A stretch of DNA of 64,000 nt from an uncultured Methanosarcinaceae archaeon (lineage in GTDB: Archaea > Halobacteriota > Methanosarcinia > Methanosarcinales > Methanosarcinaceae): positions 32,001 through 96,000 of the forward strand of contig CAVRJG010000033.1 in the NCBI GenBank assembly GCA_963721455.1. The letters run 5' to 3'. Position 1 is the first letter of the stretch. Every line of letters begins with the position of its first letter. The position numbers were made by a program, and so were the translations under genes. The notes beneath the pieces are model-generated. The model was not told the origin of the DNA. It did no database searches and saw only the letters and a program-made list of their open reading frames with translations. Below are positions 5,033 through 24,773 of the stretch, one piece after another.

Positions 5033-5278
5033 GAAGACAATGCCATAAAACTGTCTGGGATATAAAACAGTCCGAAACTTTCAGAAATCTACTTTTTGTG
5101 GGTTGAGCGAATCTCTTAACCCCAAACTTTCAGATCTTTTTTTACAAACATAAATGCTTAATTTCACTTTGGAGATATCTCTGGACTTGCTCAACCCTGA
5201 AAAATTCATAAGTCCGGACTTTTATTCAGTGGGAAATGAGTAAATTATTTTAAATAGTTTTCAGTCCGATATTATCAG

Positions 5279-6616
5279 ATGCCAAAAGTAGAAAATAAAG
5301 AGTCAAGGCCTATTTTTGGAGGAAAAGTTACCGGGGCATTGCGTGTGCTTGGAAACGAAGAAAACCCCGGAGAAGGGCTTCTGTCCATTGGAAATTACAT
5401 GGCACTTGACCATTCCCGGGGAGCTGCCGTTTATCTTGATGCCCTGAAGCCTCATGCCATTTTGATCTGCGGAAAAAGAGGATACGGAAAATCCTATACT
5501 ATGGGCTGCATGCTGGAGGAACTTGCCCTTCTGGAACCGGCTATTAAGAAAAGGCTTGCGTCCCTTATCATTGACACTATGGGGATTTTCTGGACAATGA
5601 GCCACCCAAATACTTTTGAAATGCAGAGGTTAAAAAGCTGGGATCTCGTCCCAGCCGGGCTCGAAACTGAAATTTTCGTGCCAGCGGGCAACGTTGAGGT
5701 TTACAGGAAACGAAACATCGATGTAAAGCCTTTTTCCATCTCAATCAGGGAACTTTCAGGAAGTCAGTGGTGCAGGATCTTCAATATCGAAGAGGTTTCC
5801 CCTCTTGGGATTCTGCTGGTAAGGGCAATTGAATCCCTCAGGGATAGAGGATACGCATATTCTTTTGAGGAAATTATCGGTGAGGTGCTTAAGGACACTC
5901 GCGCTGACCCGGCTTCAAAAGGGGCTGCTGAGAATTACTTCAGGGCAGTGAATTCCTGGGGCCTTTTTTCAAAAGAAGGTACATCCCTGTCAGAACTCGT
6001 GTCCGGAGGTAAAACAACGGTCCTTGACGTGAGTACTCTTGAAAATGAAAATGTATGCGCTGCAGCAGTATCAATCCTTGCAGGCAGGCTTTACGAAGCC
6101 AGGCTTGAAGCCAGAAGAGCCTATGAAAAGAAGCTTATGGGAGAAAAAGCCGGTGAGGAAGGATTTCCCATGGTCTGGTTCTTTATAGACGAGGCTCATA
6201 TTTTCGTACCCGCGAGGGCCGAAAGCCTTGCTTCCGGAGTGCTTATTAACCGCTGCCTCAGGCAGGGCAGGCAGCCTGGTCTCTCTCTGATCCTGGCAAC
6301 CCAGAGACCTGCAAGCCTGCATCCTGATGTTGTTTCCCAGAGCGATCTTCTTATCTGCCACCGTCTTACAGCAAGTGATGATATCCAGGCTCTGGAAACT
6401 TCCCGACCCCTTTATATGCAGGAAAGCCTCCAGGCGTACCTGAAGAAGATGGGGAGCGAAAGAGGAGCTGCGCTGATAGTGGATGACCATTCCGAGTCAG
6501 TCCATCTTGTGCGCATCCGCCCGAGGATAAGCTGGCACGGGGGAGGAGAACCGAGCGCTCTTGAACCTCATGCAGAAGAAAGAAGCGAAAAAACAGCACA
6601 TCAACTGCCGGAGTAA
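5279..6616 (+). CDS. HerA/FtsK-superfamily ATPase (DUF87)
   Basis: Walker A GKRGYGKS, Walker B FFIDEAH, RQGRQPG arginine finger and LATQRP. Confidence 0.85.
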   Translation: MPKVENKESRPIFGGKVTGALRVLGNEENPGEGLLSIGNYMALDHSRGAAVYLDALKPHAILICGKRGYGKSYTMGCMLEELALLEPAIKKRLASLIIDTMGIFWTMSHPNTFEMQRLKSWDLVPAGLETEIFVPAGNVEVYRKRNIDVKPFSISIRELSGSQWCRIFNIEEVSPLGILLVRAIESLRDRGYAYSFEEIIGEVLKDTRADPASKGAAENYFRAVNSWGLFSKEGTSLSELVSGGKTTVLDVSTLENENVCAAAVSILAGRLYEARLEARRAYEKKLMGEKAGEEGFPMVWFFIDEAHIFVPARAESLASGVLINRCLRQGRQPGLSLILATQRPASLHPDVVSQSDLLICHRLTASDDIQALETSRPLYMQESLQAYLKKMGSERGAALIVDDHSESVHLVRIRPRISWHGGGEPSALEPHAEERSEKTAHQLPE

Positions 6617-6803
6617 CTTATTTTTTAAATTTCCTCGGCAGATTTAAGATTAAAAAAGCTGGAATTGTTAACCAATTTTTATAGCCTGCCAGAAAATAAT
6701 TTAAATATTACCTGTGATACTTCAACCCTGTGAATGCAGCTGAGTTACAGGCTGTAAGTATTCTAATAATAGCATTTAATTGCAGCAAACCACTGGTGAT
6801 GTT

Positions 6804-7292
6804 ATGAAAGGAAAAGCCTGGAAATTCGGAGATGACGTGGATACGGATGCAGTAATTCCCGGAAGGTACCTGATTTACAATACCCCTGAGGAGCTTGCAA
6901 AGTACACGTTTGAAGGCGTGCGCCCTGAATTTGCAAAAAACGTTCACGAAAATGATATCGTGGTCGCTGGAAGCAATTTTGGCTGCGGTTCCTCGCGCGA
7001 ACATGCGCCCCTTGCCCTGAAAGGGTCAAAAGTGGCCTGTGTAATTGCAAAGTCTTTTGCAAGGATTTTTTTCAGGAACGCAATAAATATTGGAGTCCCT
7101 GTCCTGGAATGTCCGGACACTGACAGGATCGATGACGGAAACGAGCTTGAAGTAGACCTTGCGACAGGAGTTATCGAAAATAAAACAAAAGGTGAGACCT
7201 ACCAGGCAACCCCCCTCCCTGATTTCGTGCGTGAGATCGTGGATGAGGGAGGGCTTATTGAATATGCCAGAAAAATGGTCTCTGAGCGCTGA
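6804..7292 (+). CDS. leuD: 3-isopropylmalate dehydratase small subunit
   Basis: [26 protein letters not shown] and [14 protein letters not shown]. Adjacent to leuB. Confidence 0.88.
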
Positions 7293-14993: not shown

Positions 14994-16655
14994 TTAATTC
15001 GTTGTGCGTTTCCATTCCAGGATATTACCAAAGATATCTGCACCGTGAGGCTGTATTTTGGGAGTCCCAATATCTAAATCCTCATCCAGAATGTACAGAT
15101 AATCAACAGATGCCAGCCACAGCCATGTGGCATCTCCTTTTGCAGAAAATCCCGTTGTTCCGTCCCAGGCAGCCAGTTGCCAGTTATTATTAGCAGTATC
15201 TGGATCAACACTGGTTATGGCTGTCCTTAAATAATTATCCACGACAGAATTGTTGTACATTATTATGTTGTTGTAGCTTGAAGGATTGTAGCTTTTACTG
15301 TAGTATTTCAGGTATAAGTCAGTTGGATCAAGCGAACCGAAACCGAAAACTATCGGAGTTGAATGTGCAAGGGTGTCAATCTCATTCCAGCTCTTACCCT
15401 CGAGTTTAATGTTTATGCCCAGTTTTCGGGCTTCCTCGCTCAATGCAACGGCTAATGCCTGCCTTTCCTGTGCATTTGAATAATATAATAAAGTAAATTC
15501 TGCTTTCAACCCATTCTTTTCAAGGATGCCGTCGCCGTCCGTATCTTTCCAGCCTCCGTCAGCTAAAATCTTCCTGGCTTCATCTACTTTTCCATCTTCA
15601 AAAATAGCTTCCTTATTTCCGAACGGTAATTTGTCCACACCCGTAAATTCCTCTTCACCCTGCCCGTTTAATGCCCCATTGATTAAGGCTTGCCTGTCTA
15701 TTCCAATGTTCAAGGCTTTTCTTATCGCAGGATCGGAAGTTACATTGTTCCCGATTGAATAGCCGTTTTCCGTTTTCCTGCCTGTGTCGGGCTGCATGGG
15801 GAAGCTTATTCCCCGGGCGTCGATGGAATCAAGGGATACTATTTTCATTCCATCTACTTTCTCATTAGCATAGGAAGAAGGAATTTCGGCCAGATCAACC
15901 TGCCCTGACTTCGCTGCCGCAAAAGCCATGTCTGATTGCATGAAGAGTAAAGTTAGTTTTTTAAAGTACGGTTTCTGGCCATAATAATCCGGATTTGCTT
16001 CAAAGATCGCCTGCTGGCCTTTATTCCACTGTACAAACCTGTACGGGCCCGACCCAATCGGATTTTCCCCGTAAGTCTCGTCGTAAGCATGCTCTGGCAC
16101 AATCCCGATCACTGCAAGCTTGTTGATGAAGGTCGCCTGCGGATCGTTTAATTTGAATTCAACCGTATAATTATCGAGGGCTACAGAATTTTCCAGCACG
16201 GAGAGATCCACTCCACTCGAATTTGCCGCTGTGTTAAATGTGAATGCTACATCCCTGGCCATTAAAGGCACCCCGTCATGGAATTTAACGTCATCTCTTA
16301 TATTAACAGTCCATGTCAACCCATCCTCACTAACAGAATAACCTGTCGCTAAATCATGGACCAGAGACCCATTACTATCCTTTTTAAAGAGGGTACTTTG
16401 AACCAGTGGTTCGCGATTGTAGCCCCATCCGGTAATCGGGTTAAAACCGGTTTCCGGCTCTCCGCCGTGGGTCCCCACTGCTGCGACCAGCTCGTCCGAA
16501 CCCTGCGAAATTAATTCATCCGAGCCCCCGGAAACTGATTCATAAGAAACCTGGGAAGCCGGGCTGACGGGCTCACCAGCCGGCATAAAAACAAAAGCAG
16601 CCGCGAGAATTATGGCTACCATCCCTATTAAAAAATATTGCTGGTTTTTCTTAAT
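14994..16655 (-). CDS. ABC transporter substrate-binding protein (family 5, paralogue); predicted ATT start
   Basis: Paralogue of 12713..14401. An in-frame ATT lies 5 nt after GGAGGAG and gives KKNQQYFLIGMVAIILAAAFVF. The track's ATG at 16622 lies inside the hydrophobic anchor. Confidence 0.85.
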   Translation of the reverse strand: MKKNQQYFLIGMVAIILAAAFVFMPAGEPVSPASQVSYESVSGGSDELISQGSDELVAAVGTHGGEPETGFNPITGWGYNREPLVQSTLFKKDSNGSLVHDLATGYSVSEDGLTWTVNIRDDVKFHDGVPLMARDVAFTFNTAANSSGVDLSVLENSVALDNYTVEFKLNDPQATFINKLAVIGIVPEHAYDETYGENPIGSGPYRFVQWNKGQQAIFEANPDYYGQKPYFKKLTLLFMQSDMAFAAAKSGQVDLAEIPSSYANEKVDGMKIVSLDSIDARGISFPMQPDTGRKTENGYSIGNNVTSDPAIRKALNIGIDRQALINGALNGQGEEEFTGVDKLPFGNKEAIFEDGKVDEARKILADGGWKDTDGDGILEKNGLKAEFTLLYYSNAQERQALAVALSEEARKLGINIKLEGKSWNEIDTLAHSTPIVFGFGSLDPTDLYLKYYSKSYNPSSYNNIIMYNNSVVDNYLRTAITSVDPDTANNNWQLAAWDGTTGFSAKGDATWLWLASVDYLYILDEDLDIGTPKIQPHGADIFGNILEWKRTTN

Positions 16656-16850
16656 TTAAACTCCTCCTTTCTTTTAATTAAATTGAGTTATTGCAATAGT
16701 ATTACCTTACCAGTAGTATTTTCAATAATTTTTAACCCATTTAAATAACACTTTTTTTGATAGCAATATACCTAAAATGTTACTTATTAGGCAAGAGTTA
16801 AGATAAATTAAACTAAAACCATTTTGTTATAAATACTTTCCTAAATATAG

Positions 16851-16889
16851 GTAATACTAAATTAGTCATTTTATAGAATTTAGTAATAC
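16851..16889. promoter_or_regulatory. 39-bp near-perfect palindrome upstream of SBP gene 2, candidate operator
   Basis: GTAATACTAAATT-N13-AATTTAGTAATAC, with 12 of 13 arm positions complementary. Confidence 0.6.
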
Positions 16890-16957
16890 GAGAGGTGAGT
16901 GTTATTACTTTTGTGGAGTTTAGGATTGATTGCAGCCACCAGATGTCGAAAATAAGT

Positions 16958-17140
16958 CTAGTGCATCGATTTCAAATTATGAAAATAAAATCGGACTTTG
17001 AAATCAACACCAGTCAATGAGTTTCCCATAAAAAACTACAAATGGACACGGATAAACACGAATTGAAAACATCTGTATTCATCTGTGTTCATCTGTGTTT
17101 ATCCGTGGTTTATTGAGGATATATGGAATCGATGCACCAG
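16958..17140. mobile_element. MITE-like element with terminal inverted repeats and internal ATCTGTGTTC repeats
   Basis: Left end CTAGTGCATCGATTTCAAAT matches the reverse complement of the right end (CTGGTGCATCGATTCCATAT) at 17 of 20 positions. No ORF. Confidence 0.55.
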
Positions 17141-17191
17141 ATTTGGAAAAACTACAAAAATAGCAAAAGGCATCATTACGTTAAATCGCTC

Positions 17192-17278
17192 AAACAAGGA
17201 TTGAAACAAAGTGTAGCATGAAAGGAAATTAGTAAGGTAGGATTCGTGAGCAAAATCCACTAAAACCAGGATTGAAAT
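17192..17278 (+). CRISPR. Orphan CRISPR mini-array 1 (partial repeat - 34-nt spacer - degenerate 37-nt repeat)
   Basis: AAACAAGGATTGAAAC (17192-17207), spacer 17208-17241, then ATTCGTGAGCAAAATCCACTAAAACCAGGATTGAAAT (17242-17278). Confidence 0.7.
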
Positions 17279-17573
17279 ACTGGAGATACAAACTCAACAG
17301 CTCCCGCAAAAGTTGCGAAAAGGCCAGGATTCCAGCCAACGCCACTTTGAATTACGCGGAACAAGCTGGCACTGCAAGCCCGGATACAATTAAACTGAAA
17401 AACGAAAGCTTACGAACAAATTCCGATCTTTCACTTCTAAAGATAAAAAATAGAAAAGCTTTATGAAAAGAAAGCGTTTTTATTTTGCATTTTCAATGCT
17501 TAATCAATTACCGATCATAAATCGTAGCAATTTTTCAGTTGGGAATAAATCGTTATTCCCACTTCTTATGATC

Positions 17574-17972
17574 TTATTCCGTAGTCACTCCGTCGAACTC
17601 CGCTTCATTGGCTTCGGCTTCTTCCTTCGTGGCGCGCACGATTCCATCCTTGTGATGCGCCGGCGAATAGATCGTATAGAGTTTCAGATCATCCGTTTCC
17701 GAAGTGTTGATGACATTGTGCTGGGCGCCGGCCGGTACCACCACCGCAACTCCGTCACCGAGTTCATGTTCGTTGCCGTCAATTATGCACTTCCCCTGCC
17801 CTTTCTCAAAACGGAAAAACTGATCGTTTTCCTCATGCACTTCCATCCCGATTTCTTCCCCGGGCTTGAGGCTCATAAGTACCAATTGGCTGTGCTTTGA
17901 AGTATAGAGCACCTTGCGAAAATTGCCATTTTCCAAAGTGGCGTCTTCGATATTAATAGAAAATCCTTTCAT
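17574..17972 (-). CDS. Cupin domain protein
   Basis: QLVLMSLKPGEEIGMEVHEENDQFF...VVVPAGAQHNVIN...LKLYTIYSPAHH, the two cupin metal-binding motifs. Confidence 0.9.
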   Translation of the reverse strand: MKGFSINIEDATLENGNFRKVLYTSKHSQLVLMSLKPGEEIGMEVHEENDQFFRFEKGQGKCIIDGNEHELGDGVAVVVPAGAQHNVINTSETDDLKLYTIYSPAHHKDGIVRATKEEAEANEAEFDGVTTE

Positions 17973-18007
17973 ATGCTTTTAATTAATAATTAATAGTATA
18001 TAAAAAT

Positions 18008-18120
18008 ATAAGAGGGCAAGATCCAATAAAACAAGGATTGAAACTATCAGAATTTGAGAAGCTGAGGCACCCATCGAAAAAACATTCGCAAGCAAGATCC
18101 TCTAAAACAGGGATTGAAAC
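18008..18120 (+). CRISPR. Orphan CRISPR mini-array 2 (repeat - 39-nt spacer - repeat)
   Basis: ATAAGAGGGCAAGATCCAATAAAACAAGGATTGAAAC (18008-18044), spacer 18045-18083, then ATTCGCAAGCAAGATCCTCTAAAACAGGGATTGAAAC (18084-18120). Confidence 0.78.
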
Positions 18121-18343
18121 GGTGTTTTTAATGTATATATAGAGATCAGAAGACATCGTTTATAGGAACGTAAAAATTAGTGAAGTACTGAAATTGTTTC
18201 AGGGAAAATATAAAAAATGGAAAAATTATGAATAGATAACAGAACTTTTGAATAACTGATATAAAAATAACTATTCAAGCCCTATTACTTTTTCACAAAT
18301 TTTTCACTTAACTGTGCTCTTCTTTAATATTTACTTCCAATTT

Positions 18344-19618
18344 TTATTTTGATTCACCGACAGTTATCGAATACCCAAAAGATTCCGCATTTTTAGGCAT
18401 AATTGAGAGTTCCCAATTTCCAGTTGCTCCCTTAACGGTATAAGTTTCTACATAGTGCGTGCCGTAATTTTGATAAATTGTGTTATTATCCATTGACCAT
18501 GTCGGGAAATAGTATCCTCCTGTATTGACATTCATGCTTTGGGTTGTTTTTGTAAGAGACATCTTAACAGGGTTAGAATTGGATTTCAGGTTCACATTAA
18601 AAGATGGTTCTCCTATTTTAGGTGAAATACGCAGTCCCATAGTCTGGTCGTAATAATCAGTTGAAACTTCAATCGTTATTGGGTCATTACTCGTGGTGTT
18701 GAAGGTTTTCACATAAGGAACTGTAGGCCGTTGCACAGCTGTGAAGTACAGCTCTATTTGCGGGCTAGATCCGTCATTAGCTTTTCCATCAACATTCATT
18801 TTGATGTACCCATTGTACGATCCTGTCGCATTTTCCGGAACAGGCACCTTAATGGTCATGCTAGCAATTTCACCTGCTTTTATAACTGAAGGGGCAGAGA
18901 TGACTATTGCATCATCGCTGAAAGCAAATGTATTAGATGAACCAGCATACTCGTAGCTGGTAGCTTTAGGATCAATGGTGATATCTTTGTCTGCTACATT
19001 TCTAATTTTTATGTTGTACTCATATTCTTGTCCTGCCTCAACGGTATCAGAGATATAACTTGTCTGAAGCTCGATTTTCGGACTGGCCTGGACTGAGATA
19101 TCAAGTATCATTGAATTGACATATCCTGTGGAATCTGGCAGAAGATCATCTGTGAAGGCTATAGCTGTTTGATAGGATGTGCTTTCTGCATCCTCGGGGA
19201 CATTTACTTCAACTGTAAATTCTTGTAATGCACCTGATTCTACTGTTGCGTTTGTTGGAGAGATAGTGATCCAGCTTTCGTTAAAGTTGTCACTGGTGTA
19301 AACGGTATCTACAAGTTTTGGCGTTACATTAAGTGTTTCATTACCTTCATTCTTGAAACTAACAGTAAACTTTTCGCTATTTCCCGATATTAGATATGTA
19401 GAATAATAAGTCGGATATATGGTATGTACTGTGACATTTTCACCACTTATATCGTCATCAGTTACATTTTCATAAGTTCCATTTTCGCAAGTAACATTTC
19501 CAAAAGTTGACTCTTTGTCAGAATTTCCAGGTTGAGCACACGCAGCCTGTATTAATACCAGGCAAAGCAGCATCCCTAACAACCGGGGTATTACCTTTAC
19601 TCTATTATTTTTGTTCAT
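18344..19618 (-). CDS. Secreted/cell-surface protein with Ig-like beta domains (COG1470-like)
   Basis: Signal peptide (LLGMLLCLVLIQAACA), Thr/Asn-rich with many NxT sequons and repeated FTVSFKNEG / YNIKIRNVA beta-strands. Confidence 0.7.
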   Translation of the reverse strand: MNKNNRVKVIPRLLGMLLCLVLIQAACAQPGNSDKESTFGNVTCENGTYENVTDDDISGENVTVHTIYPTYYSTYLISGNSEKFTVSFKNEGNETLNVTPKLVDTVYTSDNFNESWITISPTNATVESGALQEFTVEVNVPEDAESTSYQTAIAFTDDLLPDSTGYVNSMILDISVQASPKIELQTSYISDTVEAGQEYEYNIKIRNVADKDITIDPKATSYEYAGSSNTFAFSDDAIVISAPSVIKAGEIASMTIKVPVPENATGSYNGYIKMNVDGKANDGSSPQIELYFTAVQRPTVPYVKTFNTTSNDPITIEVSTDYYDQTMGLRISPKIGEPSFNVNLKSNSNPVKMSLTKTTQSMNVNTGGYYFPTWSMDNNTIYQNYGTHYVETYTVKGATGNWELSIMPKNAESFGYSITVGESK

Positions 19619-19743
19619 ATTTCTGGCTCCATTAATTTATCAAGAAAACAACCGTTTTAACTTCTTCGCAGGGCTTTCAAGCATCTGCACAGTTACTGTA
19701 TTACATGGGGGTTACATCGTTAAACTGGAAATTCAACAGCATT

Positions 19744-19971
19744 AGGACTTACCACTCGATGTATAAAATAAAGTACATTAAACGTCATGGAATTTATATG
19801 TTGGACATTTAACGGTTTAATGCTACCTTTTTTCAGGTCATATGCGTAAGTCCTGCATAAATCCCAATACTGACTTTTAACTATGTGAATTCCAAACATT
19901 ACAACTTATACACATCCATATAATTTATATGACCAAAGTATCTAACAATTAGCACTGTTAGGACTTACGCA
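19744..19971. repeat. AGGACTTACGCA / TGCGTAAGTCCT inverted-repeat ends, probable MITE remnants
   Basis: AGGACTTAC at 19744, TGCGTAAGTCCT at 19843-19854 and AGGACTTACGCA at 19960-19971. Confidence 0.4.
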
Positions 19972-20005
19972 GTTGAATCTCCGCAAGCTTAAAATCATTT
20001 TAAAT

Positions 20006-20189
20006 ATTCGCGAGCAAGATCCGATAAAACAAGAGCTGAAACATCAGGTTCTCGGGGAGTGTAAAATCTTTGAACAAATTCGCGAGCAAGATACACTAAA
20101 ACAAGGATTGAAACCCGAATTGAGTTTTGGCTCACTTCTTGAGCTTACCAAGGTTGAGAAGTATCTTCCATTAAAGCAAAGGTTAAAAT
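20006..20189 (+). CRISPR. Orphan CRISPR mini-array 3 (2 repeats + degenerate terminal repeat, 35- and 38-nt spacers)
   Basis: ATTCGCGAGCAAGATCCGATAAAACAAGAGCTGAAAC (20006-20042), ATTCGCGAGCAAGATACACTAAAACAAGGATTGAAAC (20078-20114) and degenerate GTTGAGAAGTATCTTCCATTAAAGCAAAGGTTAAAAT (20153-20189). Confidence 0.8.
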
Positions 20190-20261
20190 TCCGAAAAGTT
20201 CCGCAATTTTCCTTTTCAGTTGCCTTTAAATCCCATAAACTAGCTACTATTCCTGATTGAC

Positions 20262-21302
20262 GTGGCAAGGAAAAAGCAATTTGAGAAGCCCCTGCATGGG
20301 GACAAGGAAAGCCTGCGCTTTGCAACCCCTGAACCTATTGCCAGCTACAGGGCACAGCGCCTGAAGTGTAAGACTCTGGCTGACATCAGCTGCGGAATAG
20401 GAGGGCAGACTGTTTTTTTTGCACAGCAATGCGAGTTCGTTTATGCAGTGGAAATTGACCCCAAAAAAATCGAATATGCCAGGCAGAACTGTGAGATGTA
20501 CGGGCTTGATAATGTAAAATTCATTTGCGGAGACGCCCTTGACCCGAAAGTTATAGAGCAGATCCCGGCAGTTGATGTGGTTTTTTCAGACCCGTTCCGT
20601 CCGGCAGAAGAAAACGAAAGGCACGTCTCAAGCCTTGAGCCGGGCATTCCTAATGTGCTGTCTGCTTACGGGGAAAAGACAAGAAATTTTGCCTTTGAAG
20701 CTCCTCCTCAGATGCCGCCTGAAAGAATTCCGTTTGACTGCGAAAAGGAGTACATCTCTCTGGACGGCCAGCTCAACCGGCTGACCCTTTACTTCGGCTG
20801 GCTGAAGCGGTATGACAGGATGGCTGTAGCTCTTCCTGCAGGCGAAGGACTGGTTCCAAAAGATGGGCTGCTCCCGCAGATAAGGGAAACTGAGAAGATG
20901 AAACTCTGCGCCTACGAGCCCGAACCCTCTGTGGTTGCAGCAGGGCTGCTGCCTGAACTCGTGGAATCCATGATACAGATGATAGGACCTATTATGGGGC
21001 ATTTCGAACTCTTCAAAGTTGACAAAAAGAGGCTTTTGCTCACCTCTGATGCCCTGATGAAGCAATCCATGATCAAAAACCATTATCTGGTCCTGAAAAC
21101 CTGCCCCTTTGAGCCAAAGGATATCAATAAATTCCTGAAAGATAGAAATGTCGGGAGTGTAGTGCTCAGGGCAGGCGTGAAGCCCGAAGATTACTGGGAA
21201 GTCCGAAACGAGGTTGAAAAAGGCCTTGAAGGAAAAAAGACAGTGCACCTCTTTGTAAAAGGCGGGACTGCAATCCTCTGTGAAGTTATCTTTAAGGACT
21301 GA
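20262..21302 (+). CDS. Class I SAM-dependent RNA methyltransferase (Tgs1/RsmD-like, THUMP-like C-terminus)
   Basis: RFATPEPIA, DISCGIGGQ motif I, AVEID and VFSDP. Confidence 0.75.
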   Translation: MARKKQFEKPLHGDKESLRFATPEPIASYRAQRLKCKTLADISCGIGGQTVFFAQQCEFVYAVEIDPKKIEYARQNCEMYGLDNVKFICGDALDPKVIEQIPAVDVVFSDPFRPAEENERHVSSLEPGIPNVLSAYGEKTRNFAFEAPPQMPPERIPFDCEKEYISLDGQLNRLTLYFGWLKRYDRMAVALPAGEGLVPKDGLLPQIRETEKMKLCAYEPEPSVVAAGLLPELVESMIQMIGPIMGHFELFKVDKKRLLLTSDALMKQSMIKNHYLVLKTCPFEPKDINKFLKDRNVGSVVLRAGVKPEDYWEVRNEVEKGLEGKKTVHLFVKGGTAILCEVIFKD

Positions 21303-21534: not shown

Positions 21535-24312
21535 TCAGGCTTGCTTGCAGGCTTCTTTCACAAGTTCAAGCCCGCGGGCAAGGGCATCCTGAATTCTTGT
21601 GGGGTCAGTTCCACCGCCCATTGCAAACGCAGGCTTCCCACCGCCGCCTCCGCTGACAATTTTTGACATCTCGCGGACAAGGTTGCCGGCATTGATTCCA
21701 CAGTTTAGGGCTTTTTGTCCGGCAGACGCTACGATCTTAACTCCTTCAGCATCGCTTGCAAGAAGAGCTACCACATCTTCATGTTTAAGGAATTCAGTGG
21801 CGATTTTCTGGAGCTCAAGGGAATCAGCCCCATGAATAAATTCGGCAATAACCTTAAGGCCTGCAAGCTCAAACGCTTCGCCCAGCAGCCTGTAAACCCT
21901 GGAACGGGCAAGCTCTTCCTTGAGCTTCTCATTTTCTTTTTTAAGGTCTTTCCATTCCCCGAAGAAACGCTCAACGCTTGTTGGAAGGTGTTCGGGAGGT
22001 ACACTCAGGGTCTTTGAGGAATCGGTCAGGAGCGAATCTATATTTTGCATGGCACGTACGGCTGCAACACCGGCTGCAAACTCAATCCTTTCCACACCGT
22101 CCTGGATCCTCTCGGCCTTCAGGATTTTGATAGGACCGATAATCCCTGTACTGATGCAGTGAGTACCGGCGCAGGCCTCGACATCATCTCCGACCTTTAC
22201 AATCCTGATCTTTTCTCCAGGAGGTACTCCACCCTGATAGAGCCCAAAGCCATATTCCTGCTCGGCTTCAGTCCTTGGCATCCATTCTGTAATAATCCGC
22301 TTGTTTTCCATGACCGTGAGGTTTGCCAGAAGCTCGATCTGCCTCAGTTCTTCCGGAGAGATATGTTTGTAATGCGAGAGGTCAAGCCTCGAATGGTCCT
22401 CAAACTTCTGGGCACCGGCCTGCCAGATGTGTTTTCCAAGAACTTTCCTGGCGGCATCGTTTACTATATGGGTTGCCGTGTGGTGCCTGGCAAGGGCCAT
22501 CCTGCGCCTTTCATCCACTTTGCCTGTGACAATGTCGCCTTTTCGGATCTCAAGATCCCCATCCGGATTATCTACTGCATGCACGATTACGCCGTTGTAC
22601 ACCTGGACGTCCACTACCCTGTACACAGCATATCCGGCAGTGATTAACCCGATATCTGCAGGCTGCCCTCCGCCTTCGGCATAGAAAAAGGTGTTGTCCA
22701 GAACTATGTGGTTGCCAAAGACATCCAGGACAACAGCTTCGAATTCCAGGCGCGTGGGTTCATCATAAAAGCTGCGCTTTGTCTTCGGGAGGTGCTTAAG
22801 CCGGTCTGCAAACGGGACTACCTCTACTTCCTTTTCTTCAGCCTTGTTATGCAGCTCACCAATGATGGAATAGAAATTGTCAGGGAATTCTACTTCAACT
22901 CCGATTTCGGCTGCTACTTCCTTTGCCATCTCGGGTGGGATTCCATGGGAATCATAAAGTTCGGTCAACTGGGACAGAGGGATCTTTTCCCCGCTTTTCT
23001 TGAAGTGAGATGCCGATTTCTGGATGATCCTGCGGCCTCTCTCCATTGTATTATTGAATTTCTCTTCTTCAGATTCCAGGATGTCCTGTATGACCGGGAA
23101 GTTTTGCCTGAATTCGGGATACTCGGGCATATTCTTTATATGCATTTCTACAATTTCGGAAAGCGGGGTCCGGATGTCAAGGTCATCCATCATGCGTAAA
23201 GTCCTCCTGAGGACAAGCCGGGCAAGATATCCTGCCTTGACATTCGAGGGAATGATCCCGTCTCCAAGCATGAAAGTCAGACATCGTGTGTGGTCAGTGA
23301 TTGCATAGACCTTTTCTACGGGTTCCATTATAGCCGAGAGTTTATCAACTGTCATTCCAATGCTTGAGGCAACCTTTTTCCTGAGTTCCATAAGGTTTGC
23401 CTTTTCACTGACATCCATAAACCCTGCAAGTCTGGCGTTCTGGGCCAGGATGTTTGCATACTCGGAGTTATCCAGCTCATGTTCAAGCCCTGCAAGCCCC
23501 ATGAGTTCGTTCACTATGCCAGGGAAAAGCGCGTCATAGATTGTAGGGGAACCCTTTGAAGCCCAGGCAAAACGTTCGAGCCCGTATCCCGTATCCACGA
23601 TATAGTTATCCATCTTCGAGTAAGTTTCACCTTTGATCAGGACATCTCCTTTTTTGTCGGCTTTCAGGTCCATGAAAACAAGGGTAGCAAGCTCAAGCCC
23701 GTGCACAATTACCTCGACACAGGGTCCGGCATTTCCTCCGCCTGCCCAGGGCTCTTCTTTGTAGGTTACGGCAAAGGGGTCTACCTTCAGTGAATTTAAG
23801 AGCTCGTCACAGAGTTCCAGGGTATGTTCCTTCCAGTAAATTTCGTTATCCCTTTTATTGAAGGCATGGTGTGCCATCATCTCAAAAGTTGTAAGATGGC
23901 GTCCACTCCTGCCTACCGAGTCCAGGTCGTTCAGGCGAATGCAGGGCTGGGAAATCGTGAGGGGATTTGCAGGTGGGGGAACCTGCCCTGAGGTTACGAA
24001 AGGCTGGAAATCGGCAATGGATGCAATGGTAAGATAAATGTCATCCCTCCAGCGGGCAACTACAGGATTACGGTTGATCCTTGTATGCCCTCTCGCCTCA
24101 AAGAAGGAGAGGTAATACTCACGCATCTGTGAGATATCAAATTCCCTGAAAAATACCGGGCTTCCTATGAAGGAATAAGGATCGCAGGGCGCATCTCCGC
24201 ATGTCTTTCGATCAAGGTCACGTGTCCAGAAGAACTTGCCGCATGTCTGGCACTGCTTCCGGACGAATCCATTGTTTTTGAAAAATTCAAGTTGATATTC
24301 ATCTTCAAGCAT
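21535..24312 (-). CDS. alaS: Alanine--tRNA ligase
   Basis: Archaeal AlaRS N-terminus (MLEDEYQLEFF...CGDAPC), VDTGYGLER, editing HHTATH and ACAGTHC, and C-Ala GGGGGK. Confidence 0.97.
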   Translation of the reverse strand: MLEDEYQLEFFKNNGFVRKQCQTCGKFFWTRDLDRKTCGDAPCDPYSFIGSPVFFREFDISQMREYYLSFFEARGHTRINRNPVVARWRDDIYLTIASIADFQPFVTSGQVPPPANPLTISQPCIRLNDLDSVGRSGRHLTTFEMMAHHAFNKRDNEIYWKEHTLELCDELLNSLKVDPFAVTYKEEPWAGGGNAGPCVEVIVHGLELATLVFMDLKADKKGDVLIKGETYSKMDNYIVDTGYGLERFAWASKGSPTIYDALFPGIVNELMGLAGLEHELDNSEYANILAQNARLAGFMDVSEKANLMELRKKVASSIGMTVDKLSAIMEPVEKVYAITDHTRCLTFMLGDGIIPSNVKAGYLARLVLRRTLRMMDDLDIRTPLSEIVEMHIKNMPEYPEFRQNFPVIQDILESEEEKFNNTMERGRRIIQKSASHFKKSGEKIPLSQLTELYDSHGIPPEMAKEVAAEIGVEVEFPDNFYSIIGELHNKAEEKEVEVVPFADRLKHLPKTKRSFYDEPTRLEFEAVVLDVFGNHIVLDNTFFYAEGGGQPADIGLITAGYAVYRVVDVQVYNGVIVHAVDNPDGDLEIRKGDIVTGKVDERRRMALARHHTATHIVNDAARKVLGKHIWQAGAQKFEDHSRLDLSHYKHISPEELRQIELLANLTVMENKRIITEWMPRTEAEQEYGFGLYQGGVPPGEKIRIVKVGDDVEACAGTHCISTGIIGPIKILKAERIQDGVERIEFAAGVAAVRAMQNIDSLLTDSSKTLSVPPEHLPTSVERFFGEWKDLKKENEKLKEELARSRVYRLLGEAFELAGLKVIAEFIHGADSLELQKIATEFLKHEDVVALLASDAEGVKIVASAGQKALNCGINAGNLVREMSKIVSGGGGGKPAFAMGGGTDPTRIQDALARGLELVKEACKQA

Positions 24313-24773
24313 AACAATCTCTCCGGCGGGTGGGGGTTTGCTCTGCCCTGATTTATCTGAAAACAAAAGGAGAAATACCCCGACTCAACCGTTTCAAGGA
24401 ACTTCCAGGCACTTTAAGTGCATATACGATAATTCAATCCATTTATCCGTTAATTTTGTATAAAGCATAAGGGAATTAACCTGAAATAGTGAAATATTCG
24501 TAAATTTTGTGCGAATAAATTTTTTTAGTTCTAAGCTTCTTTTACAATATAAACAACTTACACAACATTAACGAAATATATAATAATGTTGCATTAAACC
24601 AGACCCGTACTTATGGGCCTTAACCTATTACAGGTATTCTACAGAAAAACCTTATTCTTCACTTTAAAAGGCAGGAAGTTACTTTTATAGAAATAAAAGA
24701 CAGGCTTCTTATTCGAAAAATTTGCTGAAAAATCGGAACCAGGGAAAAAGATCGTTCCTGCGCCCTGGATTTC

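What the first reader, a model, noticed from the sequence alone, without database searches (positions are those of the whole stretch)
17192..20189. Three cas-less CRISPR mini-arrays bracketing whole genes ('giant spacers' or regulatory crRNA-like units)
Seen: seven co-oriented copies (full, partial or degenerate) of a 37-nt repeat with consensus ATTCGCGAGCAAGATCCACTAAAACAAGGATTGAAAC, grouped as 2+2+3 with normal 34-39-nt spacers. The groups are separated by a 729-bp interval holding a complete cupin gene and a 1885-bp interval holding a secreted-protein gene. Both genes are antisense to the repeats, and no cas gene is present in the 64 kb. Known: ATTGAAAC is the 8-nt 5' handle left by Cas6 in type I-B/III systems, and as recalled this repeat family occurs in Methanosarcina. 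Inference: either (a) a single array into which gene-sized DNA was integrated, so that it acts like a gene-capture platform, or (b) independent minimal arrays making crRNA-like RNAs that use Cas proteins in trans for regulation, as CreA-type RNAs do, or (c) simple decay of an old array.
Basis: partly seen in the sequence, partly recalled or inferred. Interest (0 to 1): 0.78.

Follow-up and report, generated by a model that had tools for sequence, protein, structure and literature searches.

The report
Eroded orphan CRISPR array holding genes
This is the decayed leftover of a CRISPR array in a methanogen genome with no detectable cas genes, with two ordinary genes and mobile-element scraps lodged between the surviving repeats, so it is a fossil and not a working device.

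Summary
Five full-length copies of the 37-nt repeat (1-5 mismatches), one 19-nt stump and one decayed copy of a second, related repeat type lie co-oriented at 17189-20189. They are grouped 2+2+3, around a cupin gene and a surface-protein gene that are both antisense to them.

In same-genus relatives the same site (solute-binding-protein gene, leader, array, then methyltransferase and alaS) holds arrays of 16 to 84 repeats. One relative has a type III cas operon beside it. The window's genome (98.5% complete) shows no Cas1, Cas6 or Cas6b and no tblastn match to relatives' cas operons. The array-proximal half of the leader is missing and a MITE sits there.

- **Cupin gene:** it and its upstream repeat pair form an old unit. 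In nine genomes it lies in the trailer of the other, I-B-side CRISPR locus. Only here does it sit in this locus.
- **Surface-protein gene:** the insertion is shared with one relative and ends in a MITE plus a truncated IS end.
- **Spacers:** they match nothing.

Best reading: array erosion plus insertions and repeat-mediated rearrangement, with no CRISPR function left. Neither giant spacers nor regulatory mini-arrays are supported at this locus. A second locus in the same genome (contig C46) is more cassette-like and is worth a separate look.

The parts
14994..16622 (-). Left flank: family-5 solute-binding protein gene. It marks the conserved position of the CRISPR locus ('locus B').
   Evidence: Pfam SBP_bac_5, E 9e-75. 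Orthologs at 83-88% nt identity lie 578-600 bp before the first repeat of the array in G002, G012, G017 and G023 and of the single repeat in G024, and 374 bp before it in G004.
16623..16933 (+). Remnant of the CRISPR leader, distal half only. The roughly 276 nt next to the first repeat are missing.
   Evidence: 70-77% identity to positions about 19-330 of the 600 nt upstream of repeat 1 in 6 relatives. The conserved array-proximal part has no counterpart in the window.
16955..17140 (.). MITE-like element with terminal inverted repeats, sitting where the proximal leader should be.
   Evidence: 11 near-full-length copies (175-198 nt, 76-88% identity) on other contigs of the same genome.
17189..17207 (+). 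Truncated repeat. Only the 3' 19 nt remain.
   Evidence: 1 mismatch to the 3' 19 nt of the consensus. The nominal 37-mer 17171-17207 has 14 mismatches.
17242..17278 (+). Repeat with 4 mismatches, preceded by the 34-nt spacer 17208-17241.
   Evidence: Rfam CRISPR-DR7 42 bits.
17574..17972 (-). Cupin gene (132 aa) with its own TATA-like box next to the repeat at 18008. Single copy in this genome.
   Evidence: Cupin_2, E 1e-16. One tblastn hit in the genome. Orthologs lie in the trailer of the other CRISPR locus in relatives.
18008..18044 (+). Repeat with 5 mismatches: 4 in the 5' 8 nt and 1 in the 3' 29 nt. Possibly a recombinant junction repeat.
   Evidence: Its orthologs upstream of cupin in other genomes are decayed along their whole length.
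18084..18120 (+). Repeat with 3 mismatches, preceded by the 39-nt spacer 18045-18083. Homology to G017 resumes directly after its last base.
   Evidence: The G017 junction, repeat then 224 bp then gene end, is the same.
18344..19618 (-). Gene for a 424-aa protein with an N-terminal hydrophobic segment, probably a surface protein. It is a member of a multi-copy family.
   Evidence: ORF. Only sub-threshold NPCBM_assoc and BACON_2 hits. Paralogs at 74%, 60% and 33% aa identity elsewhere in the genome. Ortholog at 89.6% nt identity in the same place in G017.
19743..19956 (.). Second MITE-like multi-copy element, with ends TAGGACTTAC...GTAAGTCCTG.
   Evidence: Many copies in the genome, for example on C53, C39, C15 and C48.
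19958..20005 (.). First 48 nt of an insertion-sequence end, cut off and abutting the next repeat.
   Evidence: 7 copies at about 91% identity that continue into a shared different sequence (the IS interior), and 3 copies at 79% that continue into a second, different one. Here the copy continues into the CRISPR repeat.
20006..20042 (+). Repeat with 5 mismatches. This repeat-plus-spacer unit (20006-20077) is missing in contigs of two metagenome runs.
   Evidence: Contigs of runs X1 and X4 join 20005 to 20078, skipping 72 nt.
20078..20114 (+). Repeat with 1 mismatch, the best-preserved copy.
   Evidence: Rfam 45.6 bits. It shares the A16 variant with the last repeat of G004's locus.
20153..20189 (+). 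Decayed copy of a second repeat type. It is the last repeat, 72 nt before the methyltransferase gene.
   Evidence: 8 mismatches to the type-2 repeat against 15 to type 1, and the only such copy in the genome. G017 has the same order of a type-1 remnant followed by a type-2 remnant. G008 also has a repeat pair, 73 nt before the orthologous gene.
20262..21302 (+). Right flank: SAM-dependent methyltransferase gene, followed by alaS (21535-24366, - strand).
   Evidence: Methyltransf_15, E 2e-12. Orthologs at 81-86% nt identity in all 15 relatives examined.

Best explanation
The stretch is the eroded remnant of a CRISPR locus that has a fixed position in this genus, most likely Methanosarcina. I call it locus B. 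Its layout is: solute-binding-protein gene, about 580-nt leader, array, then in one relative a type III cas operon, then the methyltransferase gene and alaS.

In this genome no cas gene is detectable. The half of the leader next to the array is missing and a MITE sits in its place. Only six copies of the main repeat and one of a second repeat type survive. I infer that the array's promoter went with the lost half of the leader.

The two 'bracketed' genes are ordinary genes lodged in the dead array. They are not spacers.

1. **Cupin gene.** The cupin gene with the degenerate repeat pair upstream of its promoter is an old unit. In other species it lies in the trailer of the other CRISPR locus, which sits on the type I-B side (locus A). 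Here it sits in locus B with locus-B sequence on both sides. This is most simply explained by recombination between repeats of the two loci. One junction appears to lie inside the repeat at 18008-18044.
2. **Surface-protein gene.** It entered the array before this genome and relative G017 split. Its far end is a MITE plus a truncated IS end fused to a repeat.

Erosion is still going on: some environmental strains lack one repeat-spacer unit.

**Shown:** the position, the homology, the absence of cas from the assembly, and the mobile-element remnants. **Inferred:** loss of the array's promoter, repeat-mediated transfer of the cupin block, the order of events, and lack of expression or processing.
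For: **Position and erosion series**
- Arrays of 84 (G023), 73 (G002, to the contig end), 25 (G012) and 16 (G017, to the contig end) repeats start 578-588 bp after the SBP ortholog, in the same orientation as the window's repeats. G004 has 3 repeats and G024 has 1 at the same site.
- In G002 a type III operon (Cas10, four RAMP proteins, Cas6b) ends 1.8 kb before the methyltransferase ortholog.

**No cas genes in the assembly**
- Cas_Cas6_C, Cas1 and Cas6b_C each give 0 hits in G000, which is 98.5% complete.
- Cas1 and Cas6b_C each hit 4 of 4 relatives with long arrays.
- None of the ORFs that Pfam labels Cas7, Cas5, Cas3, Cas6b, RAMP, Cas10 or Cas1 in G002, and none of the ORFs lying between the housekeeping flanks of the Cas1/Cas6b-bearing regions of G012 and G017 (not Pfam-labelled), has a tblastn hit at 1e-5. 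Flanking housekeeping genes do hit.

**Leader**
- Only the distal roughly 310 nt align with relatives' leaders. A MITE with 11 other copies follows.

**Cupin unit**
- In G008, G014 and G017 the ortholog lies a few kb beyond a perfect array of locus A, among scattered co-oriented degenerate repeats.
- Versions without the perfect array occur in G004, G006, G007, G012 and G013.
- In 9 of 9 genomes the TATA box is followed by an alignable pair of decayed repeats. Three genomes share the derived 5' end ATTCGAGAAC and one has the near variant ATTTGAGAAC.
- G000 has a single cupin copy.
- Among 80 cupin loci from named genomes, 11 have repeats within 6 kb. All 11 are antisense to cupin, and all 11 are in records labelled Methanosarcina, Methanosarcinaceae, Methanosarcinales or (one) Methanobacteriota.

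**Surface-protein block**
- G017 has two perfect repeats, then 224 bp, then the gene, then the same upstream region, then a decayed type-1 and a decayed type-2 repeat.
- In the window the block ends in a multi-copy MITE and the first 48 nt of an IS.

**Other points**
- Metagenome contigs bridge 17111-17500, 17920-18088 and 18037-18326. Contigs from two runs skip 20006-20077.
- The spacers have no significant match in the genome, in the cas loci or in the viral loci.
Against: - Several repeats are closer to consensus (1-5 mismatches) than the orthologous remnants next to cupin in most other genomes. Those are not detected at up to 11 mismatches in 6 of 8 genomes. Pure old decay does not predict this. 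I explain it by recent import from a then-living array, which is an inference.
- Two cargo boundaries do coincide with repeats: 18120/18121 exactly, and one inside 18008-18044. A repeat-dependent insertion process would predict this.
- The genome is a draft of 73 contigs, and its locus A is broken between the 3-kb contig C6 and contig C64. I therefore cannot show what remains at the cupin gene's usual place.
- Absence of cas genes from an assembly is not proof of absence from the cell.
- No expression data exist, so 'not transcribed or processed' is untested.
- G004 keeps Cas6b yet has only 3 repeats here. Erosion of this locus is therefore not simply a consequence of losing cas.
Confidence: 0.75

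Rival explanations
1. Gene-capture platform. Gene-sized DNA is inserted between CRISPR repeats by a repeat-dependent process, and arrays then behave like integron cassette arrays. The process could be Cas1-Cas2 integrating over-long prespacers, or recombination at repeats with other arrays or with viruses that carry solitary repeats.
For: - The cupin block is flanked by repeats on both sides. It sits in locus B only in this genome, and one junction lies within a repeat.
- The surface-protein block begins exactly after a repeat, both here and in G017.
- In G004 a 1665-bp insert with two genes lies between two repeats that share the A19 variant.
- In the same genome, contig C46 74374-75780 has 4 repeats with three inserts of 491, 433 and 335 bp and no normal spacer. 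Each insert has one small sense ORF, and G065 has 17 repeats at the orthologous site (16 perfect plus a decayed terminal copy).
- The 70-aa ORF family there is typical of viral contigs: 89 relatives in IMG/VR, and a phrog_33375 match.
- Six viral contigs carry this host repeat as a solitary unit or as a pair.
Against: - The cupin gene plus its repeat pair is old and alignable in 9 of 9 genomes, with spacers diverged. It was not freshly captured.
- The left side of the cupin block is separated from the repeat by 136 nt with no homolog.
- The far end of the surface-protein block is a truncated IS end.
- The repeats flanking each cargo in the window share no private variants.
- On C46 the inner repeats are perfect while the leader-proximal repeat is mutated. 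This is the opposite of what duplication of the first repeat by Cas1-Cas2 would give.
- No viral or metagenome locus with the 70-aa gene shows it bracketed by repeats. That is 0 of 80 viral loci and 0 of 80 metagenome loci, although 2 of the 80 metagenome loci have a repeat nearby.
Confidence: 0.15
2. Independent regulatory mini-arrays. Each pair would make a crRNA-like RNA, like CreA or crlRNA, that guides Cas proteins supplied in trans to repress a promoter.
For: - Units of two repeat-like sequences around one spacer, with a decayed distal repeat, are the published architecture of such elements. They are common in I-B loci: 18% of 1243 loci (PMC10120712, passages read).
- Pairs sit right next to promoters here, for cupin and for the methyltransferase.
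- In relatives, the pair before an acyltransferase gene has a spacer that is 34 of 38 identical between G008 and G014.
Against: - No Cas protein is encoded in the assembly.
- No spacer has a better-than-chance match anywhere in the genome. The best matches are 15-16 nt at E above 0.02, and the single 12-nt local match lies mid-spacer, not in the seed.
- Spacers of orthologous pairs are not conserved.
- The one conserved 'spacer' contains a TATA-like box, so promoter function can explain its conservation.
Confidence: 0.05
3. Assembly artefact. The contig is a chimera joined across CRISPR repeats, so the genes only appear to lie between repeats.
For: The genome is a 73-contig draft, and repeats are classic break or join points. 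Its other CRISPR locus is fragmented.
Against: - Every repeat here is a different sequence variant of only 37 nt, too short and too unlike to collapse.
- Contigs from other sequencing runs bridge the MITE and pair 1, cupin and pair 2, and pair 2 and the surface-protein side. One of those runs may be the source sample.
- G017 independently has the same junction between repeats and the surface-protein gene.
Confidence: 0.03

Closest known systems
Orphan or degenerate CRISPR arrays left after loss of cas genes, for example the E. coli I-F orphan arrays (review PMC8616872, passages read)
   Same: A short array without cas genes, at the position where relatives keep a full locus, with repeats accumulating mutations.
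   Different: Here the remnant is split by two genes, two MITEs and an IS stump. Its spacers show no match to relatives' cas genes, unlike the anti-cas spacers described for E. coli.
Methanosarcina mazei Go1 type I-B and III-C CRISPR loci (PMC7465815, passages read)
   Same: Two CRISPR loci per genome with related leaders. Relatives of this genome have a locus with I-B genes plus type III genes, and a type III locus, both with Cas6b.
   Different: This genome has neither cas operon. That the repeat is the one used by M. mazei is recalled, not checked against that strain.
Regulatory mini-arrays: CreA, crlRNA and other cr-like RNAs (PMC10120712 passages read; PMC8501985 seen in a search listing only)
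   Same: Two repeat-like sequences around one spacer, with the distal repeat decayed, lying next to genes in or near CRISPR loci.
   Different: No effector is present, no partial-match target was found, and there is no spacer conservation at this locus.
Virus-borne solitary repeat units and mini-CRISPR arrays (PMC6858448 and PMC10651486 seen in search listings only; PMC8616872 passages read)
   Same: The same host repeat occurs as a solitary unit or a pair in 6 IMG/VR contigs. In two of them it lies 14 nt before a gene, two genes downstream of a terminase gene (Terminase_6N confirmed for one of them, L170).
   Different: The window locus is chromosomal, sits at a conserved site and has no viral genes. 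The viral link concerns the C46 locus, not this one.
Integron gene-cassette arrays
   Same: Genes separated by copies of a short repeat. On C46 there is one sense-oriented small gene per interval.
   Different: No integrase and no attC-type sites. In the window the genes are antisense, with their own promoters and irregular boundaries. This is an analogy only.

Membership tests
CRISPR array (repeat family Rfam CRISPR-DR7) | Direct repeats of one family, co-oriented, separated by unique spacers of regular length | tested here: met
   5 full copies with 1-5 mismatches. 4 score above the Rfam gathering score. Spacers are 34-39 nt within each group.
Functional CRISPR-Cas locus | cas genes for processing and interference in the genome | tested here: not met
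   Cas6, Cas6b and Cas1 profiles give 0 hits. tblastn with the ORFs of four relatives' cas-bearing regions gives 0 hits for any ORF of those operons. The assembly is 98.5% complete.
Functional CRISPR-Cas locus | Intact leader next to the first repeat | tested here: not met
   Only the distal roughly 310 nt of the leader align. The conserved proximal part is absent and a MITE sits there.
Orphan or degenerate array (remnant of a former locus) | Same genomic position as a full array in relatives | tested here: met
   Arrays of 84, 73, 25 and 16 repeats lie in G023, G002, G012 and G017: between the same flanking genes in G023 and G012, and next to the same left flank, running to a contig end, in G002 and G017. 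3 repeats and 1 repeat lie between the same flanks in G004 and G024.
Regulatory mini-array (CreA / crlRNA type) | Spacer with seed-side partial complementarity to a nearby promoter, flanked by a PAM | tested here: not met
   No local or genome-wide match beyond chance. PAM was not evaluated because no target was found.
Regulatory mini-array (CreA / crlRNA type) | Cognate effector complex present | tested here: not met
   No Cas7, Cas5, Cas8, Cas3 or type III subunits by tblastn.
Regulatory mini-array (CreA / crlRNA type) | Expression and Cas6 processing of the unit | not testable with these tools
   No RNA run was listed for this sequence.
Giant spacers made by the adaptation machinery | Insert bounded on both sides exactly by full repeats, the new repeat being a copy of the leader-proximal one | tested here: not met
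   One boundary is exact (18120/18121). The others are 136 nt of unrelated sequence, a truncated IS end, or lie inside a repeat. The flanking repeats differ from each other.
Integron-like cassette array | Site-specific recombinase and cassettes that vary between strains at fixed recombination sites | tested here: inconclusive
   I did not search for a recombinase. Gene content between repeats does vary among species in the locus A trailers, but insertion, deletion and decay explain it as well.

The most novel reading that the evidence does not exclude
In this genus, CRISPR repeats may act as portable homology that lets whole genes be moved between CRISPR loci and taken up from viruses. Array trailers would then become small gene-cassette islands.

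The cupin block would be one such cassette, moved from the I-B-side locus into the type III-side locus by crossovers in its flanking repeats.

The C46 locus of the same genome would be a fresher case. It has four repeats and three gene-sized inserts with virus-type small genes, each ORF in sense and starting 43-217 nt after a repeat. It could have been seeded by recombination with viruses, which do carry solitary copies of this repeat.
Probability: 0.2. Interest if true: 0.65.

Novelty: new member of a known kind. Interest (0 to 1): 0.35.

Why it matters
On the best reading this is an ordinary fossil, a CRISPR locus caught late in its decay. It is useful mainly as a worked example of three things:
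- how arrays die: leader loss, MITE and IS hits, and unit-by-unit deletion;
- how array-finding software and readers can mistake the pieces for separate mini-arrays;
- how scattered degenerate repeats can mark former CRISPR loci across a genus.

The more interesting lead is comparative. In several species of this genus, the trailers of living arrays run on for 5-12 kb as scattered, co-oriented, decayed repeats with ordinary genes in between. One such gene block has changed CRISPR locus in this genome. If repeats really mediate this traffic, arrays would be hotspots for gene flow as well as immune memory.

Tried and rejected
**Checks that led nowhere or were dropped**
- **Expression.** The look-up of sequencing runs listed no RNA holder, so expression could not be examined. 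The four runs laid are metagenome contigs with partial, low cover.
- **Wrong cas marker.** Cas_Cas6_C (PF01881) across the genus hit only 11 of 59 genomes and missed G002, G012 and G017, which have long arrays. It is the wrong marker for this genus, so I used Cas6b_C and Cas1 instead.
- **Spacer targets.** I compared four window spacers and one C64 spacer with the genome, with 171 fetched loci (1.25 Mb, including relatives' cas operons) and with the viral loci. Nothing beat chance. This covers both self-targeting and the anti-cas-spacer idea known from E. coli.
- **A separate leader for group 3.** I asked whether 19619-20005 is a leader for a separate array. It has no similarity to relatives' leaders. 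It is a MITE plus an IS end.
- **Shared spacers.** Window spacers, G004, G023 and G017 trailer spacers are all about 50% identical in gapped alignment, which is chance level.
- **Hidden repeats.** No extra repeat remnants lie inside the cargo intervals. The best candidate, 17351-17385, is reached by 164 of 300 shuffles.
- **Protein families.** The 424-aa protein has only sub-threshold Pfam hits and no PHROG or NCBIfam family. The two genes in G004's insert have none either.
- **Close relatives of the C46 cassettes.** The best hit is 65% aa identity in viral contigs and 62% in metagenome contigs. None is bracketed by repeats.
- **Promoter scan.** scan_promoters_terminators was not used, because it models bacterial sigma-70 promoters.
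- **Structure tools.** The structure, complex and atlas tools were not used. No claim here depends on a fold.

**Literature.** Keyword searches listed no paper that describes protein-coding genes between CRISPR repeats in Methanosarcina. The library lacks most subscription journals, and supplements were closed. The supplementary files of PMC10120712 may list archaeal I-B/III-C mini-arrays that bear on this.

Full report
**What is there.** Reading 16800-20600 and the repeat searches confirm five full-length, co-oriented copies of the 37-nt repeat. They lie at 17242, 18008, 18084, 20006 and 20078 and have 4, 5, 3, 5 and 1 mismatches. There is also a 19-nt 3' stump at 17189-17207 and a seventh element at 20153-20189. 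Spacers inside the groups are 34, 39, 35 and 38 nt. The two long intervals are 729 and 1885 bp. Shuffles give no such matches: 0 of 100 at up to 3 mismatches and 0 hits in five shuffles of the contig at up to 9 mismatches. Rfam's CRISPR-DR7 model scores four copies above its gathering threshold on the + strand. The seventh element is not a decayed copy of the same repeat. It has 8 mismatches to a second repeat type that shares the 3' 19 nt and forms an array at this locus in relative G017. The cupin gene (Cupin_2, E 1e-16) and the 424-aa gene are both on the - strand.

**No cas genes in the assembly.** The window is part of contig C33 of a 3.94-Mb, 73-contig assembly rated 98.5% complete. Profiles for Cas6 (PF01881), Cas1 (PF01867) and Cas6b_C (PF17262) find nothing in it. 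Cas1 and Cas6b_C each hit 4 of 4 relatives that have long arrays. I took all ORFs of at least 100 aa from the cas regions of G002 (two operons), G012 and G017 and ran tblastn against the genome. The flanking housekeeping genes hit, but none of the operon ORFs did. Pfam labels the G002 ORFs as Cas7, Cas5, Cas3, Cas6b, RAMPs, Cas10 and Cas1 in one locus, and as Cas10, four RAMPs and Cas6b in the other.

**The locus has a fixed position and is a full array in relatives.** With the flanking genes as anchors (counts re-made), the SBP ortholog is followed after 578-588 bp by arrays of 84 (G023), 73 (G002, to the contig end), 25 (G012) and 16 (G017, to the contig end) repeats. These arrays have the orientation of the window's repeats. 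In G023 and G012 the methyltransferase and alaS genes lie beyond the array on the same locus; in G002 and G017 the array runs to a contig end and those genes lie on other contigs. G004 has three repeats and G024 has one at the same place. In G002 the type III operon with Cas6b ends 1.8 kb before the methyltransferase ortholog. This is therefore the type III-side locus, in line with the I-B plus III-C pair described for M. mazei Go1 (PMC7465815, passages). In the window only the distal roughly 310 nt of the leader still align with relatives (70-77% identity). The conserved part next to repeat 1 is absent. In M. mazei that conserved part lies just downstream of the array's promoter (same paper). 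In its place sits a 186-bp MITE-like element with 11 near-full copies elsewhere in the genome.

**The cupin gene is not a captured spacer.** Orthologs at 82-90% nt identity lie at another locus in relatives. Fetching those loci showed a second CRISPR locus. It consists of orthologs of G000 contigs C54-C4-C6, a cas operon with Cas1 and Cas6b in G017, a perfect array, and then 5-12 kb of scattered, co-oriented, decayed repeats (singletons and pairs) with ordinary genes between them. The cupin gene is one of these. The locus ends with orthologs of the start of G000 contig C64. G008, G014 and G017 have the array. G004, G006, G007, G012 and G013 show only the decayed part in the stretches fetched. 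Aligning the cupin upstream region of nine genomes shows in all nine a TATA-like box followed by two decayed repeats one spacer apart. Three of them share the derived 5' end ATTCGAGAAC and a fourth has the near variant ATTTGAGAAC, and the spacers have diverged. So the gene plus its repeat pair is an old, inherited unit. In 80 cupin loci from named genomes, repeats occur within 6 kb in 11. They are always antisense to cupin, and only in records labelled Methanosarcina, Methanosarcinaceae, Methanosarcinales or (one) Methanobacteriota.

**How the cupin block may have reached this locus.** G000 has one cupin copy, and it sits in locus B with locus-B sequence on both sides. The repeat next to it (18008-18044) has 4 mismatches in its first 8 nt but only 1 in the remaining 29. 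Its orthologs in most other genomes are decayed throughout. I read this as a crossover inside that repeat, between the old locus-A remnant and a then well-kept locus-B repeat. This is inference. The left side is less tidy: 136 nt between the repeat at 17242 and the start of homology have no relative anywhere.

**The surface-protein gene.** G017 has the same arrangement at the same locus. The order there is type-2 array, two perfect type-1 repeats, 224 bp, the gene (89.6% nt identity), the same upstream region, a decayed type-1 repeat, 36 nt, and a decayed type-2 repeat. The insertion therefore predates the split of the two species. The gene belongs to a family with three paralogs elsewhere in G000. 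In other species its relatives have no repeats within 1.5 kb: 0 of 4 loci. The region between the gene and the next repeat is made of a multi-copy MITE-like element (19743-19956) and the first 48 nt of an IS end (19958-20005). In seven other copies at about 91% identity that end runs on into a shared IS interior, and in three copies at 79% into a second, different one, but here it abuts the repeat. The last repeats lie 72 nt before the methyltransferase gene. G008 has a decayed pair 73 nt before its ortholog, and G014 has one 1.3 kb before, although neither has an array there. That end is ancient.

**The contig is not a chimera, and erosion continues.** Short contigs from four metagenome runs bridge 17111-17500, 17920-18088 and 18037-18326. 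Contigs of two runs join 20005 to 20078, dropping exactly one repeat-spacer unit. One of the runs may be the source sample, and cover is low, so this is modest support.

**Regulatory reading.** Published regulatory mini-arrays have the same two-repeat form and are frequent in I-B loci (PMC10120712, passages). Here there is no effector, no target and no spacer conservation. One pair in the locus A trailer of relatives does have a conserved spacer: 34 of 38 positions match between G008 and G014. It contains a TATA-like box in front of an acyltransferase gene. Promoter use is the simpler explanation.

**What remains odd.** Contig C46 of the same genome (74374-75780) has four repeats, the inner two perfect. 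Three inserts of 491, 433 and 335 bp lie between them, and there is no normal spacer. Each insert holds one small ORF in the repeat's sense. G065 has 17 repeats at the orthologous site, 16 perfect plus a decayed terminal copy. Two inserts are paralogs at about 78% identity. Their 70-aa product belongs to a family common in viral contigs: 89 relatives in IMG/VR at up to 65% identity, and a phrog_33375 match. Six viral contigs carry this host repeat. In two it is solitary and lies 14 nt before a gene, two genes downstream of a terminase gene (Pfam-confirmed for one of the two, L170), and in two it forms a pair. A published proposal is that such solitary repeats recombine with host arrays (PMC8616872, passage citing Faure et al. 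2019). That would fit C46, but no source element was found. This locus, not the window's, carries most of the probability of the novel reading.

**Verdict.** The locus is a decaying orphan CRISPR array with insertions and a probable repeat-mediated rearrangement. It is a new member of a known kind and of moderate-to-low interest, with a comparative lead worth following.

Noticed in passing
G000 contig C46 74374-75780 (locus L074 1566-2972), outside the window: Four CRISPR repeats with three gene-sized inserts (491, 433 and 335 bp) instead of spacers. The outer two repeats share two variants and the inner two are perfect. Each insert has one small ORF in the sense of the repeats. Two inserts are paralogs at about 78% identity, encoding a 70-aa CxxC protein of a family common in viral contigs. 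G065 has 17 repeats at the orthologous site (16 perfect plus a decayed terminal copy).
   Followed up: partly
IMG/VR loci L166-L171: Six viral contigs carry the host CRISPR repeat. In L169 and L170 a solitary full-length copy (1 mismatch) lies 14 nt before a 418-aa gene, two genes downstream of a terminase large-subunit gene (Pfam-confirmed for L170). L166 and L171 have a pair with one 36-nt spacer. L170 is the same contig as L088, which carries the 70-aa gene family.
   Followed up: partly
window 17574-17972 (-): The 132-aa cupin protein is unusually conserved across very distant groups. It has 77-94% aa identity in records labelled Methanosarcina, Methanolobus, Methanococcoides, many Patescibacteria, Gammaproteobacteria, Nanoarchaeota and Aminicenantes MAGs. 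It also matches phrog_13536 (E 4e-29). This suggests strong constraint and wide horizontal transfer. Its function is unknown.
   Followed up: no
window 16955-17140, 19743-19956 and 19958-20005: Two different MITE-like multi-copy elements and a 48-nt stump of an IS end lie within 3 kb. The decayed array is a sink for mobile elements.
   Followed up: partly
loci L068 (G008), L069 (G014), L067 (G013), L065 (G007): In the trailer of the other CRISPR locus, a degenerate repeat pair lies just upstream of an acyltransferase gene. Its 'spacer' is 34 of 38 identical between two species, is recognisable in two more, and holds a TATA-like box. It may be a promoter sitting in, or born from, an old spacer.
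   Followed up: partly
window 20006-20077: Contigs of metagenome runs X1 and X4 lack exactly this repeat-plus-spacer unit. This looks like strain-level variation by deletion between neighbouring repeats. The 28 nt before each of the two repeats are also about 60% alike, which hints at an old tandem duplication.
   Followed up: no
G000 contigs C64 (62, 619, 690, 4365), C8 (89148), C41 (47867, 49357), C23 (11837), C38 (124910): Further solitary or paired degenerate copies of the repeat are scattered in the genome. The C64 copies match the tail of the other CRISPR locus's trailer in relatives. The C23 and C38 copies are identical to each other (7 mismatches), so they may belong to some other repeated element.
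   Followed up: partly
locus L032 (G004) 5132-6942: At the orthologous locus of G004, a 1665-bp insert with two genes of no known family lies between the first and second repeats, and these two repeats share a private variant (A at position 19). G004 still has two Cas6b genes.
   Followed up: no
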